Shown here piece by piece: positions 11,591-16,058 of a DNA stretch of 64,000 bases (its first letter is position 1; the number at the start of each line of letters is the position of its first letter). This DNA is from Candidatus Poribacteria bacterium (GTDB lineage: Bacteria; Poribacteria; WGA-4E; WGA-3G), in assembly GCA_963665235.2 (NCBI GenBank), contig CAXXLX010000001.1:3744001-3808000 (forward strand), in the 5' to 3' direction. The notes beneath the pieces are model-generated. The model was given only the letters and a program-made list of their open reading frames with translations, was not told the DNA's origin and searched no databases. The translations under genes were made by a program, and so were the position numbers.

Positions 11591-12520
11591 TCACGCCTCG
11601 GTTTCTTCCAGGACCTGCTGGAAGTCTTCGGGCGTGTTCGCCAACATAGCAGCGCGGAGCAGTGCCTGAAGCTGCTGCGGGTCGTCGATTTGCTCCAATG
11701 CGGGTTTAAAGCGAAGCGCAGCATCGGACTGCAAGCGAAGGGTTAGTGCTTCAAAGATGCTTTGCTGCACACCTTGCTGCACACCTTGCTGTATACCTTG
11801 CTGTATACCTTTTTGGTGTGCCTCCGCTGTCGCTTTCTCTGTTAGGTGTCGGATAATATCTAATTCGTACATCGTCTCCTCCTTTACAATAGCTAAAATC
11901 ATATTCATATCATAAACTAAATTGCCTAAAATAGCCATGCTCCCAATATACTCAGATGGCTCTGGCACATCTGCGCGCGCCGCAGTTTGAACACATCGCC
12001 GAAACCACGCCTCCGCATCTACACCCGCAGGACGCTCCATCAACGGCGTAAACGGAAGCAACCCGACCGCATTTGAATCCAATACCGCCTGACCATCCAT
12101 ATCTATCAACCGAACAACCTTATACTCTATCAAAATCCGGTGATCCGCTAAATCCTGTGTAAAACGTCCCGGGTCATTTTTACCCGCATCTGGGCGAATA
12201 TAGATGACATAAGAATACACAAGCAACCGATATTTCGCAGCTATCCACATGATGTAACCCCCCATTCTTAGGGGCATGGGCGGGTCATAGCTGTCTGTGG
12301 TCTGGAACTCAATGTGCAACAACGCCTCTCTGCCATCAACTTCCACTTTGATAAGCACGTCTGCCTGATGCATCTCAATCGTTGGTTGTTCAGGTGTGAT
12401 GATTTCCAGCACGGTGAAATCTTTGTCACCTATACAAAGGTTTGCAAAATCATCAGGGTGTTCCTGAACATAATCTTTAGAAATAGTGTCAACTACTGCC
12501 ACTTTATCTCCTTTCGCCAC
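11591..12520 (-). CDS. Rpn-family (PD-(D/E)xK) nuclease / putative transposase
   Basis: ADVL...LLHIEFQT...MPLRM motif; GIQQG repeats; small helical C-terminal domain. Confidence 0.88.
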   Translation of the reverse strand: MAKGDKVAVVDTISKDYVQEHPDDFANLCIGDKDFTVLEIITPEQPTIEMHQADVLIKVEVDGREALLHIEFQTTDSYDPPMPLRMGGYIMWIAAKYRLLVYSYVIYIRPDAGKNDPGRFTQDLADHRILIEYKVVRLIDMDGQAVLDSNAVGLLPFTPLMERPAGVDAEAWFRRCVQTAARADVPEPSEYIGSMAILGNLVYDMNMILAIVKEETMYELDIIRHLTEKATAEAHQKGIQQGIQQGVQQGVQQSIFEALTLRLQSDAALRFKPALEQIDDPQQLQALLRAAMLANTPEDFQQVLEETEA

Positions 12521-12628
12521 TACGGCGTACGCTTATTTAACATTATACACGAAATGTGTTAACTTTTTCAACCTTAGAATCACAACATCTTGCCAGGAGA
12601 GAAAATAATGAAAATCTGCGATTTTCAA

Positions 12629-13078
12629 CGTTTCGGTGTCAAAACCCAATGCTTTAGCTTTGGGATGTAGACACCGCTAAAAACTTTGATTGCACACTAA
12701 ACCTTTTTAGTTGTTTTACGTCTAATAGATTTAGAGTGTACGGTTGCTATAGAGGGCAGTTACGCGCCTCCTGATTAGACTTCCTATAGTGTAAAGCTCT
12801 AATGTCAGTATTCGGGGTGAAACCCCGCTCCTCCGTCAGAAAGTGTAGCATGACAGTCGTTAGTAGGGAAAGACAGGTAATGCTGAAACCCGTTTGAACA
12901 ATACGACTCAAAACAAATTTCACAAGGACACTTCGGTGTCGCAGTCAGGGTAGTGTCTGTTGCAGTAGGCTTCTGTCCCTGGAGAACCGCTATAGGTTTT
13001 CTAAACAAGGTCGTTGATCGCACGAAAGCTTTCGCATAACTTTGCGGAAGCCCAAGTCTTTAGACTTGGGTCTATCAC
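12629..13078 (+). mobile_element. Non-autonomous IS200/IS605-type element (no tnpA or tnpB); left boundary approximate
   Basis: Left subterminal hairpin 12634-12676 (CGGTGTC-AAAA-CCCAATGC-TTTA-GCTTTGGG-ATGTA-GACACCG); right hairpin CCCAAGTC-TTTA-GACTTGGG at 13051-13070 followed by TCAC; no TIR or TSD. Confidence 0.8.
12725..13078 (+). ncRNA. Putative highly structured ncRNA inside the IS605-type element (family unassigned)
   Basis: Many helices, including a cUUCGg-capped hairpin (12927-12940), CGGGG/CCCCG (12813-12827) and crossing long-range pairings. Confidence 0.55.
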
Positions 13079-16058
13079 AGATAAACTCTAATTCCTGTGT
13101 TAGCAATTGTGGGTCTCTGCAAACGTGAAAACGCCACTTTTTCAGTTTTCCCCAATTGTTCACAGCGGATACCCACCGTTTGGCAGCAGCATGCTTGGCG
13201 TGCACCTGATCTGGTTCAAAACCTTTGATTTCTAATATGAGGTGGTCTCCGTTCTTGAAGCGGACGATAAAATCCGGTTCGTAACGGTGAGAAAACCCAT
13301 TGTGTTCGTACGGAATGCCGAGTCCGAGATGATCATTTCGTACATAGCATTCCACAATTTCTGATTGCTCAAGCCGAAATACTGCTGCACGTTCCCAGCT
13401 GTCTGTATCCAACACTACCTGATTCACATGGCTGCGTTGTGTTCCAACACAGGGCCGCGATGTGAGAAAATCAACATCAGCCGATGTCCCAATCGGTGCA
13501 TACCGGTTTAGAATAGGCAGCAGCGGTATTTCTCCCTTCGCCTCGTCAGGTTGGATAGCGGCCATCAACCTTTCCACAATACGCATAACGTATTTTTCCT
13601 GTCCAAGTTCACACGGGTGCTCCCCGCGAAAATCAACCTTTGTTTTGACATAGTTATCAACATACCGAAAGACCTGTGGAAAGAGCCGATGCCGTGAGAG
13701 TAGCCTTAGCTTCGGATTACTGTTCGGATCAGGGGCGGTGTCCCTATCCCCAACTAACTTGCGCACAATCCGATGTGCAATTTCAAACTTAATCGCCTGT
13801 AGGTGAGTGCTATCATAATACGCCTCGCGGTCCTGAAGTTTAACTTCTCCCGGCCCGGATGTCGAAGGCGCGCCCGTTTCGTATCCTACAGCAGGTTTAA
13901 CAAAAAGTGCTGTCGGATTCCGTTCAGGTTGAATCTGAAGCGGTTCAGTAGAGGTAATGTCAGCCTTGATTTCGTTCTTACGCAATGCGAAGGCATACCC
14001 TTCAACAACCGGATATTTAATCTCAAAATGTTCACGTTCAGGCAACGCCCGGACGTGGTTTTTCGGTTTGTCATCCGGGGCACTCGCTGTAGTGGGTCTG
14101 CCTCTAAACGGAATAACCGAAAAGGGTATACCGTAAACATCAACATATTCCTCGGTAAGCAGCCCCGTCTCTGGGTCCGGTGTATAATTCATGCGGCGCA
14201 ACCCGCGCCCGACTACCTGCTCACAAAGGAGTTGACTACTAAAGGCGCGTAACCCCAAAATATGTGTGACGTTGTTCGCGTCCCATCCCTCGTTTAGCAT
14301 TGCGACTGAGACAACGCATCGGATTTGCTCGCCCGGTTGCCCACGCTTACCGATTGTGGCGACTATCTGTCGGAGCTGCTCCGCTGCATCCGATTTCGAT
14401 TGACTGGCATCAGCCTTCTCCGCTTGTGCCAACATTTTGCTATCGATACGTAACGTTCGTTTCACATTCTCTGTATTTGAAAATAGGTCGGGGAAAATTG
14501 CCCCCTGTTCGTAGACCGTCCGCGTCTTCTGCTTTTTTCGTTTTTCGTTTGAGGTGTCCTCGTCAGCAACCTCAACCGTCCGTTCGCCGGAGATTTTTTC
14601 GTAAAAATACGCCGCTATGTCGGTATTGGCACAGACGACAATCATGACAGGTGGCGTTTTTTCTTGGGCATCGGAGGCTTCCTGAATGTATTCAAACCGC
14701 TCTTTCCATTGACTTGCAAGCGTGATAAGAGCGGGTTCCGCCTCGCGATAGATAGCATCCGGTTTAGGTGTCCGTTTCCGTCTGCCCGGGGACGTATCTG
14801 CTGCTGAGAGCTCATCATTGATTGTTTTCCACAATCGAAAGTATTTCGGCTCAGGTCTACCTGTGGTATCGCTCACTGGCAAGCGGGGAATTTTTGTGAT
14901 GCCGCTCTCAATTGCGTCAACCAAACCGAAATCGCTAACAAGCCACGGAAAGGGGTCCCCCTCTGCATGACCGCTGCCTTTTATGTAAAACGGCGTAGCG
15001 GAGAGGTCAACACAAAACTTAACACCGCACCCTACGTTAATCTTGTCCAAACCTTCCACCCAAACAGTGGCTTCTTGACGTTCCCGCTTTTCATCGGCGG
15101 AGAGTTTTTCGGCATCCTCCTCTATAGGTGCTGGACGGTAGGCGTGATGTCCCTCGTCGTTCAGCACCATAATTGGCGCGCGGTCGGACAATTCCCCCAA
15201 GACACGTTTCGCAAAAACTTCCGGTGTTTCCTTGCCTTTATTGATAACTGTGTATGTCTTCCCACCTTCACTATGTGGCGACTCAGGGGCAAATTGATGC
15301 CAATTGGTAATCAAGACTTTTCCGCTATTGAGCAGTGGCCGGAGTTTTGTCGGGATGAGTTCAAACTCGTCGTAGTAGTTATTCGCCTCTTCGGGACGTA
15401 AAACTTGCAGCCGTTGTTTGATTGTGAGGTTCGGACAGACGATAAGGGCAGCTGCGGGAAAACGTTCGTCAGATGGCACTTTTCCACGATTGCAAAATGC
15501 CCACGCGATGAGCATCGCCATCACAACGGTTTTACCGCTACCGGTCGCCATTTTGCACCCGTAACGGATTAGAGCGGGAATATCTTCTGTGTTTGGAATA
15601 TCCACTAACTTGGCGAGGTCTTCATCGGTGAACTGCGGAGTGAAACGGAGATGTTTGCCACCCTGACGTATTTCGGCAAGATAGATAGCTGTCTCAACCG
15701 CTTCACGTTGGCAGAAAAAGAGTCTTCGGAATAGGTCGTCCCGTGTCCAATGCCGTAGCAGTTCACGGGTGATGGGAGTAGCGTTGCGATAATTGGCATC
15801 CCGCCACCGTTTAACATCGGCCCGTAGCGCGTTGACTAGCGGCAGGTCATCCCACTCCTCTTCTCGGAAGAGTTGGAGCTGTTCGCTGCCGGTGCGCTGT
15901 GTTTTATACCAATAGCCTGCATCTCGCCGTCCCGGTTGTTTGACCGCTGCGCCTGTTTCCGTATCGTAAACCCAGTGGGTGTTTGGCTCTTCGTACGGGC
16001 TGCATAGGATAGGTTGCTCTACAGGTTGGATTGGAATGTCAGGTCGGTTTTGATTCAT
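12990..16058 (-). CDS. res: Type III restriction enzyme Res subunit (SF2 helicase plus C-terminal nuclease)
   Basis: MATGSGKT, NDEGHH, MLNEGWD, QVVGRGLRR, YEPDF and LEIKG motifs; the last ~29 codons run into the IS605-type element. Confidence 0.9.
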   Translation of the reverse strand: MNQNRPDIPIQPVEQPILCSPYEEPNTHWVYDTETGAAVKQPGRRDAGYWYKTQRTGSEQLQLFREEEWDDLPLVNALRADVKRWRDANYRNATPITRELLRHWTRDDLFRRLFFCQREAVETAIYLAEIRQGGKHLRFTPQFTDEDLAKLVDIPNTEDIPALIRYGCKMATGSGKTVVMAMLIAWAFCNRGKVPSDERFPAAALIVCPNLTIKQRLQVLRPEEANNYYDEFELIPTKLRPLLNSGKVLITNWHQFAPESPHSEGGKTYTVINKGKETPEVFAKRVLGELSDRAPIMVLNDEGHHAYRPAPIEEDAEKLSADEKRERQEATVWVEGLDKINVGCGVKFCVDLSATPFYIKGSGHAEGDPFPWLVSDFGLVDAIESGITKIPRLPVSDTTGRPEPKYFRLWKTINDELSAADTSPGRRKRTPKPDAIYREAEPALITLASQWKERFEYIQEASDAQEKTPPVMIVVCANTDIAAYFYEKISGERTVEVADEDTSNEKRKKQKTRTVYEQGAIFPDLFSNTENVKRTLRIDSKMLAQAEKADASQSKSDAAEQLRQIVATIGKRGQPGEQIRCVVSVAMLNEGWDANNVTHILGLRAFSSQLLCEQVVGRGLRRMNYTPDPETGLLTEEYVDVYGIPFSVIPFRGRPTTASAPDDKPKNHVRALPEREHFEIKYPVVEGYAFALRKNEIKADITSTEPLQIQPERNPTALFVKPAVGYETGAPSTSGPGEVKLQDREAYYDSTHLQAIKFEIAHRIVRKLVGDRDTAPDPNSNPKLRLLSRHRLFPQVFRYVDNYVKTKVDFRGEHPCELGQEKYVMRIVERLMAAIQPDEAKGEIPLLPILNRYAPIGTSADVDFLTSRPCVGTQRSHVNQVVLDTDSWERAAVFRLEQSEIVECYVRNDHLGLGIPYEHNGFSHRYEPDFIVRFKNGDHLILEIKGFEPDQVHAKHAAAKRWVSAVNNWGKLKKWRFHVCRDPQLLTQELEFICDRPKSKDLGFRKVMRKLSCDQRPCLENL

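What the first reader, a model, noticed from the sequence alone, without database searches (positions are those of the whole stretch)
12629..13078. Protein-free IS200/IS605-ended element carrying a ~350-nt structured RNA
Seen: two subterminal hairpins with TTTA loops (12634-12676 and 13051-13070 followed by TCAC) bound about 450 bp that have no credible ORF. The interior folds extensively: TTAGAG/CTCTAA with nested CTATAG/CTATAG (12731-12802), CGGGG-TGAAA-CCCCG, GACAC-TTCG-GTGTC (a cUUCGg tetraloop, which favours the + strand) and CAGGG/CCCTG (12946-12981). Two long-range pairings cross each other, TCAGTATT/AATGCTGA (12805/12879) and AGTCGT/ACGACT (12855/12903), which implies a pseudoknot. Established: such hairpin ends are TnpA (Y1 HUH) substrates, and these elements encode the omega-RNAs of TnpB/IscB or, in IStrons, ribozymes. 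Inference: this is a trans-mobilised element whose only cargo is a large ncRNA (guide scaffold or ribozyme-like). It looks too ordered to be decayed tnpB, and I cannot assign it to a named family.
Basis: partly seen in the sequence, partly recalled or inferred. Interest (0 to 1): 0.85.

Follow-up and report, generated by a model that had tools for sequence, protein, structure and literature searches.

The report
Protein-free transposon carrying a guide-RNA gene
This 452-bp stretch is a gene-less relative of IS200/IS605 insertion sequences whose only cargo is a conserved, highly structured RNA that looks like the guide RNA of the TnpB nuclease plus an extra 190-nt domain, a kind of element noted before but little studied.

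Summary
The observation largely holds. Window 12627-13078 is a 452-bp element with an IS200/IS605-type left-end nested hairpin, a right-end hairpin and a TCAC end. It has no conserved ORF. The genome holds five near-identical copies and one divergent copy. Homologues occur in 33 of 112 genomes of the same family and in 18 stretches of MAGs titled Poribacteria; every one examined is protein-free.

The interior is a + strand structured RNA: 30 of 41 predicted pairs show compensatory changes, with 161 G-U cells against 16 A-C.

The 3' ~130 nt plus the right end are homologous to the region just after the TnpB zinc-ribbon domain in resident tnpB copies, which is where omega (guide) RNA scaffolds lie. 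The 5' ~190 nt also covaries but was not found in any tnpB-linked copy.

Of 33 members, 24 carry a sigma-70-type promoter. The other nine, including all copies in this genome, carry AAC-N16-CGT(C/T).

The CGGGG hairpin and TCAGTATT lie in a copy-specific 25-nt insert; CAGGG/CCCTG is not conserved.

Best reading (0.65): a PATE mobilised in trans by TnpA, whose RNA guides TnpB in trans. PATEs encoding omega-RNAs are already in print, so this is a new variant, not a new class. Transcription, guide use and mobility are untested.

The parts
12622..12626 (+). Target-site / presumed TAM position just outside the left end. It reads TTTTC here and TTATC in 32 of 33 family members.
12627..13078 (+). Whole protein-free IS200/IS605-type element (PATE), 452 bp.
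   Evidence: The five copies lose similarity exactly at these ends. 18 further elements of 402-434 bp occur in MAG records.
12634..12676 (+). Left-end nested hairpin: outer stem GGTGTC/GACACC, inner stem CCCAATGC-TTTA-GCTTTGGG. Presumed TnpA recognition structure.
   Evidence: Compensatory differences between copies. Same architecture as the LE of the autonomous IS605 at G000:C1:3153031.
12700..12722 (+). AAC-N16-CGTC bipartite motif ending 8 nt before the RNA's first helix. Candidate promoter of ECF-sigma type; that naming is recalled, not tested.
   Evidence: Present at this position in 9 of 33 members, exactly the 9 that lack a sigma-70-like promoter. The spacer sequence differs between copies.
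12731..13078 (+). Predicted structured RNA, about 348 nt here and 324 nt in the other copies.
   Evidence: RNAalifold and pair counts. Strand set by 161 G-U against 16 A-C cells.
12731..12802 (+). Domain 1: outer stem TTAGAGT/GCTCTAA enclosing GCTATA/TATAGT (12746-12751 with 12785-12790).
   Evidence: Helix 1; outer stem. Found only in this family.
12807..12834 (+). Copy-specific insert (net +25 nt) made of a small dispersed hairpin repeat. Not part of the conserved RNA.
   Evidence: Other copies of the repeat are listed.
12855..12908 (+). Domain 2: outer stem AGTCGT/ACGACT; GGG/CCC (12866-12868 with 12889-12891); inner hairpin CAG/CTG (12874-12876 with 12883-12885). It carries the motif GGTAATGCTG.
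   Evidence: Helices 2 and 3; outer stem. Motif followed by a right-end motif at 17 genome sites, none near a listed TnpB hit.
12927..12940 (+). Hairpin GACAC-UUCG-GUGUC.
   Evidence: Helix 4: 5 of 5 pairs with changes on both sides.
12941..13049 (+). Omega-RNA-like 3' module. It has a hairpin with a GGGTAG loop (12941-12960), a long-range helix UGC/GCA (12961-12963 with 13020-13022) and the helix 12968-12973 with 13007-13012. It also holds the conserved GGTCGTTGATCGCAC (13009-13023) and the stem GCTTTCGC/GCGGAAGC (13028-13035 with 13044-13051).
   Evidence: Homologous to the 3' ends of tnpB copies.
13050..13078 (+). Right-end hairpin (13051-13070) and terminal motif CTATCAC (TCAC at 13075-13078).
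   Evidence: Helix 9: 9 of 9 pairs with changes on both sides. The last 60 nt are 90% identical to the RE of the resident IS605 at C1:31454.
13079..13094 (+). Flank that would serve as the guide if the RNA works like a TnpB omega-RNA. Inferred; the 16-nt length is recalled from ISDra2.
   Evidence: Position only. No terminator-like site in 12500-13200.
12990..16058 (-). Type III restriction res-like helicase gene. Its last ~29 codons are read from inside the element's right end.
   Evidence: Orthologues end 7-10 residues after the QEL motif.

Best explanation

Shown by comparison:
- It keeps only the left-end and right-end hairpin structures that a Y1/HUH TnpA needs.
- It lies next to the family's target pentamer.
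- Between its ends it holds a candidate promoter and one ~325-350-nt + strand structured RNA.
- The RNA's 3' ~130 nt plus the right end are homologous to the omega-RNA scaffold region at the 3' end of resident tnpB genes.

Inferred:
- A resident TnpA excises and reinserts the element as single-stranded DNA 3' of TTATC.
- The RNA is transcribed from the internal promoter and runs through the right end into the flank.
- There it supplies a ~16-nt guide and loads in trans into TnpB made by autonomous IS605 copies.
- TnpB then cuts the emptied donor site (TTATC plus the guide match), and recombination restores the element.

The extra 5' ~190 nt (domains 1 and 2 and the UUCG hairpin) is under structural selection. 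Its role is unknown. I guess it stabilises the RNA or helps it compete for TnpB.
For: - Copies and ends: 5 full copies plus 1 divergent copy in the genome, with common boundaries. TTATC flanks 32 of 33 members.
- Helper genes: an autonomous IS605 at G000:C1:3153031-3154827 has the TTATC target, the same LE architecture and the RE GGGGGTCTATCAC. Its TnpA carries DHVHLL and SYF. The resident TnpB (403 aa) scores 199.7 bits against NCBIfam guided_TnpB, cut-off 100, and hits the Pfam OrfB_IS605 and TNB domains.
- Structure: 30 of 41 predicted pairs have compensatory changes. 96.1% of cells pair against 77.8% when shuffled; covariation 0.526 against 0.188, 0 of 500 shuffles; slid controls 0.04-0.10.
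- Strand: 96.1% paired on + against 85.0% on -, with 161 G-U against 16 A-C cells.
- Omega-RNA homology: an nhmmer profile of the family (model positions 195/198-322) matches 13 places that each start 7-10 nt after a TnpB TNB-domain match. Covariance model R1, built without the RE hairpin, matches full length (1-125) at 5 tnpB 3' ends, E 1.4e-7 to 1.8e-4.
- Promoter: 24 of 33 members have a sigma-70-like promoter scoring 9-12 of 12, with the -10 ending 3-5 nt before the first helix. The other 9 have AAC-N16-CGT(C/T).
- Match to the resident IS: the last 60 nt of this genome's copies are 90-93% identical to the RE of the IS605 at C1:31454. Homologues from other genomes are 60-88% identical.
- Not coding.
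- In print: passages of PMC10055086 say PATEs often encode omega-RNAs that TnpB from other IS elements must act on in trans.
Against: - No direct evidence here that this copy is transcribed, that the RNA reaches into the flank, that TnpB binds it, or that the element still moves.
- The window copy has TTTTC, not TTATC, at the target/TAM position. It carries a 25-nt insert inside the RNA. It has no sigma-70 consensus promoter on the + strand. It may therefore be a crippled copy.
- The 5' ~190 nt has no counterpart in any tnpB-linked RNA found, so the RNA is not simply an omega-RNA.
- Homology to tnpB-linked scaffolds is moderate: 29-40 bits against 106-110 bits for the family itself.
- Two of the three TnpA copies of the matching IS605 group read DPVHLL instead of DHVHLL.
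- The RNA-library contigs laid were of relatives and cannot show ends or strand.
Confidence: 0.65

Rival explanations
1. The RNA is not a working guide. It may be a TnpB-binding decoy or regulator, or an RNA whose conserved 5' domains carry a separate function while the omega-like 3' part is a leftover needed only because it overlaps the right end.
For: - The 5' ~190 nt covaries (helices 1-4).
- It is confined to protein-free elements. The D2 motif plus an RE motif occurs at 17 genome sites, none within 700 bp of the 40 TnpB hits checked.
- It is carried with two different right-end classes, TCTATCAC and GAGTATGTCA.
Against: - The 3' module is itself under structural selection: helices 5-8 and the pre-RE stem covary.
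- It stays contiguous with the right end in all 33 members, as a guide scaffold must.
- No known regulator or ribozyme family matches.
Confidence: 0.15
2. It is a host-domesticated small RNA gene: an immobilised former PATE now expressed from a stress (ECF-type) promoter for a cellular role.
For: - All six copies in this genome have replaced the sigma-70-type promoter by AAC-N16-CGT(C/T), with variable spacers.
- The interiors of the five copies are 98-99% identical while the ends vary.
Against: - The copies lie in unrelated flanks and keep intact LE and RE hairpins with matched compensatory changes.
- The ends track the resident IS605.
- Copy number varies from genome to genome, 1-9 matches. 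These are marks of a mobile element.
- The ECF assignment is recalled from the AAC/CGT rule and was not tested.
Confidence: 0.08
3. The conserved pairings act only in single-stranded DNA during TnpA transposition, and no functional RNA is made.
For: IS200/IS605 transposition uses folded single-stranded ends (established knowledge, recalled). Both strands fold about equally well as single sequences.
Against: - Only the subterminal hairpins are needed by TnpA in known systems (recalled), yet nine helices across 350 nt covary.
- Invariant G-U pairs favour RNA: for example columns 290-331 in 32 of 32 sequences, and 161 G-U against 16 A-C cells overall.
- A promoter sits at a fixed distance upstream in 24 of 33 members.
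- Pieces of relatives occur in contigs of RNA libraries, a weak hint.
Confidence: 0.05
4. It is an IStron-like or ribozyme-bearing element, with a self-splicing or self-cleaving RNA between IS605 ends.
For: IStrons combine IS605 ends with a structured RNA (passages of 10.1101/2023.11.20.567912). The 5' domains have no assigned role.
Against: No group I intron or small-ribozyme family matches even at E up to 10 or at gathering thresholds over the whole window. All members examined lie at varied sites without a shared host-gene context.
Confidence: 0.04
5. It is a decayed tnpB remnant with no selected function.
For: The tnpB ORF overlaps the omega-RNA region in autonomous copies, so a deletion derivative is a plausible origin for the 3' module.
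Against: - tblastn of 15 TnpBs against 33 elements: best E = 0.12, at scattered places and strands.
- Compensatory changes are seen throughout.
- All 45 elements from other genomes that could be read end to end (27 in family genomes, of 28 loci examined, and 18 in MAG records) and the 6 in this genome are protein-free with the same layout.
Confidence: 0.02

Closest known systems
PATEs (palindrome-associated transposable elements) of IS200/IS605 that encode omega-RNAs, as noted for Geobacillus stearothermophilus (Meers et al., preprint PMC10055086; passages read)
   Same: Protein-free, bounded by IS200/IS605 LE and RE structures, sharing ends with resident autonomous elements. They carry an RNA that would need TnpB supplied in trans.
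   Different: - The RNA here is ~325-350 nt, with a covarying 5' ~190-nt part not found in tnpB-linked RNAs of the same genome.
- The element has its own promoter, of two alternative types.
- The family is a persistent lineage across at least three genera of one family (33 of 112 genomes) rather than sporadic deletion products.
- I could not see that paper's Extended Data or supplements, so the size and structure of their PATE RNAs are unknown to me.
TnpB omega-RNA / reRNA of IS605-type elements (ISDra2 type; details recalled, not read here)
   Same: On the top strand, abutting the right end, with the scaffold followed by the flank. The 3' module is homologous to the RNA region after the TnpB TNB domain in resident copies.
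   Different: Not overlapped by a tnpB ORF. It is transcribed, if at all, from its own promoter rather than as part of the tnpB mRNA, and it has extra 5' domains. No Rfam family covers either this RNA or the resident tnpB-linked ones.
IscB/IsrB omega-RNA (HEARO RNA, Rfam)
   Same: A large structured guide RNA within an IS200/IS605-type element.
   Different: HEARO lies at the left end with a 5' guide (passages of PMC13565253, and recalled). Here the conserved scaffold abuts the right end and a promoter lies inside the left end. No Rfam match.
IStrons (IS605 ends plus a group I intron plus tnpB) and their PATE derivatives (passages of 10.1101/2023.11.20.567912)
   Same: IS605-type ends around a structured RNA. 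Protein-free derivatives exist.
   Different: No group I intron signature, and no splice-site context.
MITEs of DDE transposons
   Same: Short, non-autonomous, multi-copy, mobilised in trans.
   Different: No terminal inverted repeats or target duplications. It has asymmetric subterminal hairpins and inserts 3' of a fixed pentamer. It carries a selected RNA gene.

Membership tests
IS200/IS605 non-autonomous element (PATE) | Subterminal LE and RE hairpins of IS200/IS605 type, no inverted terminal repeats | tested here: met
   LE 12634-12676 and RE 13051-13070. They covary between copies. Same architecture as the autonomous IS605 at C1:3153031-3154827.
IS200/IS605 non-autonomous element (PATE) | No protein-coding gene | tested here: met
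   No conserved ORF. No Pfam family above threshold for the longest minus-strand frames. tblastn with 15 TnpBs: best E = 0.12.
IS200/IS605 non-autonomous element (PATE) | Several copies in different flanks, inserted 3' of a fixed short target | tested here: met
   6 copies in the genome. TTATC at the left flank in 32 of 33 members; the window copy reads TTTTC.
IS200/IS605 non-autonomous element (PATE) | A cognate Y1/HUH TnpA encoded elsewhere in the genome | tested here: met
   13 Y1_Tnp matches. The copy at C1:3153209-3153562 has DHVHLL and SYF and sits in an IS605 with matching ends. Activity on this element was not tested.
IS200/IS605 non-autonomous element (PATE) | Actual excision and insertion (empty or filled sites) | tested here: inconclusive
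   Orthologous res genes without the element exist, but their downstream DNA is not collinear with the window's left flank. No clean empty site was obtained.
TnpB omega-RNA (reRNA) | Scaffold on the top strand, directly abutting the right-end boundary | tested here: met
   The conserved structure runs to 13078 in all 33 members. Strand from G-U counts.
TnpB omega-RNA (reRNA) | Homology in sequence and structure to RNAs encoded at the 3' end of tnpB genes | tested here: met
   nhmmer: 13 matches starting 7-10 nt after TNB-domain matches. Model R1: 5 full-length matches at tnpB 3' ends, E 1.4e-7 to 1.8e-4. This holds for the 3' ~130 nt only.
TnpB omega-RNA (reRNA) | Transcript that extends ~16 nt into the flank as a guide | tested here: inconclusive
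   Only assembled contigs of three metatranscriptome runs of one study were available. They hold pieces of relatives and cannot show ends or strand.
TnpB omega-RNA (reRNA) | Binds TnpB and directs TAM-dependent DNA cleavage | not testable with these tools
   Needs biochemistry or a cell assay.
TnpB omega-RNA (reRNA) | Whole RNA accounted for by the omega scaffold | tested here: not met
   The 5' ~190 nt (12731-12940) has no match at tnpB-linked sites.
IscB omega-RNA (HEARO) / IStron group I intron / small ribozymes | Match to the curated covariance model | tested here: not met
   No Rfam match at gathering score in the window. None of these families appears at E up to 10 in 12400-13300.

The most novel reading that the evidence does not exclude
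These elements are a long-lived lineage of RNA-only 'hyperparasites' of IS605. Each is a free-standing guide-RNA gene that borrows both TnpA (to move) and TnpB (to be retained). Its ends are repeatedly swapped to match whichever autonomous element is resident. Its extra, covarying 5' ~190-nt module does something that omega-RNAs embedded in tnpB do not do. Candidates are capturing TnpB in competition with the cis-encoded RNA, protecting or processing the transcript, or switching conformation. In this genome it is tied to an ECF-type stress promoter.
Probability: 0.3. Interest if true: 0.7.

Novelty: new variant of a known kind. Interest (0 to 1): 0.5.

Why it matters
TnpB and its omega-RNA are the ancestors of Cas12 systems and are being engineered as very small genome editors.

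- A natural lineage in which the guide RNA has separated from the nuclease gene shows that guide and nuclease can evolve as independent selfish modules. This is the split that CRISPR arrays later made permanent. Here the RNA has kept or gained its own promoter and a conserved accessory domain, and it persists across genera.
- The 33-member alignment with many compensatory changes gives a ready map of which helices are selected in this TnpB clade's scaffold. It also offers a testable accessory domain.
- It adds mobile-element biology for relatives labelled Poribacteria. I found no paper mentioning TnpB together with that phylum (search).

Tried and rejected
- **Rfam.** Whole window at gathering thresholds: no match. 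12400-13300 at E up to 10: four chance-level hits, best Acido-Lenti-1 on the RE hairpin at 18.6 bits against a cut-off of 37. Three loci holding resident IS605 or PATE copies: nothing relevant. Rfam therefore cannot decide omega-RNA membership.
- **Single-sequence folding** did not separate the strands. G-U counts did.
- **Decayed tnpB:** rejected.
- **Minus-strand ORFs.** Long open stretches exist in some members, up to 102 codons, but frame, strand and length are not conserved. There is no Pfam family above threshold. Rejected as coding.
- **Helices missed by RNAalifold.** On alignment A2 it missed the outer stem of domain 1, the outer stem of domain 2 and the pre-RE stem, because type-2 sequences are misaligned there. 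I checked those with a helper script instead, which is less formal.
- **Empty site.** res orthologues were found in 82 of 112 genomes and 8 were read, but none gave a collinear empty site.
- **TnpA co-occurrence.** 96 of 112 genomes have Y1_Tnp. 31 of the 33 RNA-positive genomes have it; the two without (G044, G072) are 73% and 85% complete. This does not discriminate.
- **RNA evidence.** The three RNA runs found held only small shares (0.04-0.09). When laid they gave contigs of relatives. Pieces 90% or more alike cover 12853-12898, 12937-12973 and 13028-13079. There was no cover of 12710-12833 in any RNA run. This says nothing firm about transcription of this copy, its ends or its strand.
- **My first guess of a cyanobacterial host was wrong.** Exact-motif hits are all in MAGs titled Poribacteria.
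- **Left ORF.** I first took it (11591-12520) for an Rpn-family nuclease. It has only a sub-threshold NCBIfam match, 28.1 bits against a cut-off of 52.1, and no Pfam family.
- **Not used:** the metagenome contigs and viral-contig scans, structure prediction and complex prediction.
- **Supplements are closed,** so the Extended Data on PATEs in PMC10055086 were not seen.
Full report
**What is there.** Window 12627-13078 (+) is a 452-bp element. Its left end is a nested hairpin at 12634-12676. Its right end is a hairpin at 13051-13070, followed by TCTATCAC ending at 13078.

On the minus strand it is flanked by two genes.
- A 1022-aa ORF (12990-16058) matches the Pfam type III restriction res family.
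- A 309-aa ORF (11591-12520) has no Pfam family. Its only NCBIfam match, to the Rpn family, is below threshold.

The res ORF reads about 29 codons into the element's right end. Eight orthologues from related genomes end 7-10 residues after the shared QEL motif. The element therefore sits in the last few codons of res and replaces its natural tail.

**Copies and boundaries.**
- The genome (5.3 Mb, 4 contigs) holds four more full copies, 88-89% identical overall.
- A sixth, divergent copy lies at C1:3013537-3013971. It was found by its ends and by a family profile.
- The five copies lose similarity exactly at the two ends.
- Their interiors are 98-99% identical.
- The end hairpins differ by matched compensatory changes. 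Two copies have CCCAAT.C/..TTTGGG-type stems at both ends and three have CCCCC../..GGGGG stems at both ends.
- The window copy alone has a net 25-nt insert at 12807-12834. This insert is itself a small hairpin repeat found at five or more other sites in the genome.

**Relatives.** A 207-nt interior query matched 33 of 112 genomes of the same family, counting this genome. By genus the matches were g6 26 of 65, g3 6 of 40, and none in g2, g4 or g5, which together hold 6 genomes.

I read 28 loci from related genomes.
- One was cut by a contig end and dropped.
- 25 went into the family set, alongside the 6 copies from this genome.
- The last two loci were further copies in a genome already represented in the set: a second protein-free element, and the same element interrupted by an IS4/5-family DDE transposase.

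With the 6 copies of this genome this gives 33 sequences. The 32 distinct ones were aligned as A2.

Every one of the 33 is 400-450 bp from left end to right end and has no gene. An exact 22-letter motif from domain 2 found 18 more stretches in 7 MAG records, all titled Poribacteria. All 18 are bounded by TTATC plus a left end 203-234 nt upstream and a right end 200-207 nt downstream, giving 402-434 bp. By inference the host is a member of that group. My first guess of a cyanobacterium was wrong.

**Target site.** TTATC lies directly outside the left end in 32 of 33 members. The window copy reads TTTTC. Right ends fall into two classes, TCTATCAC and GAGTATGTCA.

**Structured RNA.** RNAalifold on A2 predicts 41 pairs in 9 helices, and 30 pairs have compensatory changes.

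| Measure | Observed | Shuffled | Slid controls |
|---|---|---|---|
| Cells forming a standard pair | 96.1% | 77.8% | 34-51% |
| Covariation score | 0.526 | 0.188 (0 of 500 reach it) | 0.04-0.10 |

The sequences are related, so the shuffle counts are not probabilities.

Three further stems were checked by script. They are the outer stems of domains 1 and 2 and the stem before the right-end hairpin. Each shows several different complementary arm pairs at a fixed place.

The strand is +. On the + strand 96.1% of cells pair, against 85.0% on the minus strand. There are 161 G-U cells against 16 A-C cells, including a G-U pair invariant in 32 of 32 sequences.

- Supported: CTATAG/CTATAG, TTAGAG/CTCTAA, the cUUCGg hairpin and AGTCGT/ACGACT.
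- Not supported: the CGGGG hairpin and TCAGTATT/AATGCTGA, which lie in or depend on the copy-specific insert.
- Not supported: CAGGG/CCCTG, which is not conserved.
- No pseudoknot follows from the evidence.

**What the RNA is.** An nhmmer profile of the family matches the six family copies full length. With model positions 195/198-322 it also matches 13 places, each starting 7-10 nt after a TnpB TNB-domain match.

A covariance model of the 3' module, built without the right-end hairpin (125 positions, 20 pairs), gave 15 matches at E up to 0.01. Only 150 of 758 candidates were scored.
- 6 are the family copies.
- 5 are full-length matches at tnpB 3' ends, with E from 1.4e-7 to 1.8e-4.
- 4 are other protein-free elements.

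By eye the tnpB-linked RNAs keep the same helices with compensatory changes. Examples are UGC/GCA becoming UGG/CCA, and the GGGTAG-loop hairpin.

In autonomous copies the tnpB ORF runs through this region to within the pre-RE stem. That is where TnpB omega-RNAs are encoded, which I state from recalled knowledge and from passages of PMC13565253. So the 3' ~130 nt plus the right end is an omega-RNA scaffold homologue.

The 5' ~190 nt (12731-12940) is different. Domain 1 is found only in this family. The domain 2 motif GGTMATGCTG occurs at 43 genome sites. At 17 of them a right-end motif follows 170-270 nt downstream, and none of these 17 is within 700 bp of the 40 TnpB hits I listed. tblastn with 15 resident TnpBs finds no coding remnant, best E = 0.12.

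**Helpers.**
- The genome has 13 Y1_Tnp and 44 TnpB TNB-domain matches.
- An IS605 at C1:3153031-3154827 has the TTATC target, the same nested LE, tnpA, tnpB, the omega-like region and the RE GGGGGTCTATCAC.
- Its TnpA reads DHVHLL and SYF. Two sister copies read DPVHLL.
- The sister copy's TnpB scores above the NCBIfam guided_TnpB cut-off.
- The last 60 nt of this genome's PATE copies are 90-93% identical to the RE of the IS605 at C1:31454. PATE homologues from other genomes are 60-88% identical. The element's terminal module thus matches its resident helper.

**Promoters.** 24 of 33 members have a sigma-70-type promoter scoring 9-12 of 12, often TTGACA-17-TATAAT. Its -10 ends 3-5 nt before the first helix. 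The other nine have AAC-N16-CGT(C/T) ending 6-8 nt before the first helix, with spacers that differ in sequence. These nine are all six copies in this genome, one locus shared by two genomes, and one more. Only 1 of the other 24 has that pattern, and at another place. I recall AAC/CGT as the hallmark of ECF-sigma promoters, but this was not tested. The simple scan finds no + strand sigma-70 promoter and no terminator in 12500-13200.

**Expression.** Only assembled contigs from three metatranscriptome runs of one study were on hand. They hold pieces of relatives, 90% or more alike, over 12853-12898, 12937-12973 and the right end. One short contig runs 15 letters beyond the right end. Contigs cannot show strand, ends or level, and DNA can be present in such libraries. 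I count this as no more than a hint.

**Mechanism.**
- Shown: the element's anatomy, its copy history, the selected + strand RNA structure, homology of the 3' module to tnpB-linked scaffolds, and the presence of matching helper genes.
- Inferred: TnpA moves the element as single-stranded DNA to sites 3' of TTATC. The RNA is made from the internal promoter and reads into the flank. TnpB from autonomous copies uses it to cut the emptied donor site so that recombination restores the element. This is the model given for IS605 in passages of PMC10055086 and PMC13565253.
- The role of the 5' domains is unknown.
- The window copy may be impaired, because of its TTTTC flank and the insert in the RNA.

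**Known or new.** PATEs are described. The 2023 preprint says they often encode omega-RNAs that need TnpB in trans. An IStron-derived PATE is also shown in a later preprint.

I found no paper that holds both 'Poribacteria' and 'TnpB'. Two other literature searches turned up no description of this RNA. Many journals and all supplements lie outside what I could search.

I therefore rate it a new variant of a known kind. It is a widespread protein-free lineage with its own promoters and an accessory, covarying 5' domain.

Noticed in passing
window 12807-12834; also G000:C1:4194202, C1:2981592, C1:1044749, C1:1178367, C2:693093: A ~27-nt hairpin repeat (GTATTCGGGGTGAAACCCCGCTCCTC-like) is dispersed in the genome. 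One copy has landed inside the window's RNA, and one lies just upstream of a 161-aa IS200-type tnpA.
   Followed up: partly
G000:C1:546358-546842, 1772400-1772888, 2603639-2604099, 2583950-2584430, 3108742-3109208, 3342013-3342500, 4312561-4313017, 1018314-1018802; C3:14417-14880: A second, more numerous protein-free family (~490 bp). It has the TTATC target, an LE and TTGACT-N17-TATAAT promoter like those upstream of tnpA in the autonomous IS605, and a different 5' RNA domain. It shares the GGTCATGCTG motif, an omega-like 3' module and a GAGTATGTCA end.
   Followed up: partly
G000:C1:490756-491345 and C1:1891817-1892353; C1:1298510-1298790; C1:469802-470401: Further protein-free elements of ~600 bp with other long RNA bodies. 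The one at C1:469802 holds a run of about five 33-nt tandem repeats between its promoter and the omega-like module.
   Followed up: no
window 12990-13078 (minus strand): The res-like helicase gene ends inside the element. Its last ~29 residues are element-encoded, replacing the 7-10 residue tail seen in orthologues.
   Followed up: yes
G000:C1:32727-33074 and C2:339792-340142, compared with C1:3153209-3153562: Two of the three TnpA copies of the matching IS605 group read DPVHLL where the third reads DHVHLL. They have probably lost the first histidine of the HUH motif.
   Followed up: partly
L075 about 250-1260 (G013): One family member is interrupted by an IS4/5-family DDE transposase gene split into two ORFs (Pfam DUF4096 and DDE_Tnp_1). 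The uninterrupted twin is in L093.
   Followed up: yes
window 12852-12863 with 12951-12962, and the same places in relatives: The 5' arm of the domain 2 stem can alternatively pair with the 3' strand of the GGGTAG hairpin. This gives 10-12 bp in 7 of 33 members, for example TGACAGTCGTTA/TAGCGACTGTTG. It is a possible conformational switch, or a by-product of similar stems.
   Followed up: partly
window 13079-13085: The right flank begins AGATAAA, so the reverse complement of the target pentamer TTATC abuts the right end with one base between. This is not seen at other copies and is probably chance.
   Followed up: partly
window 12542-12571 (minus strand): A near-consensus promoter, TTGAAA-18-TATAAT, lies upstream of the 309-aa ORF at 11591-12520, between that gene and the element.
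   Followed up: no
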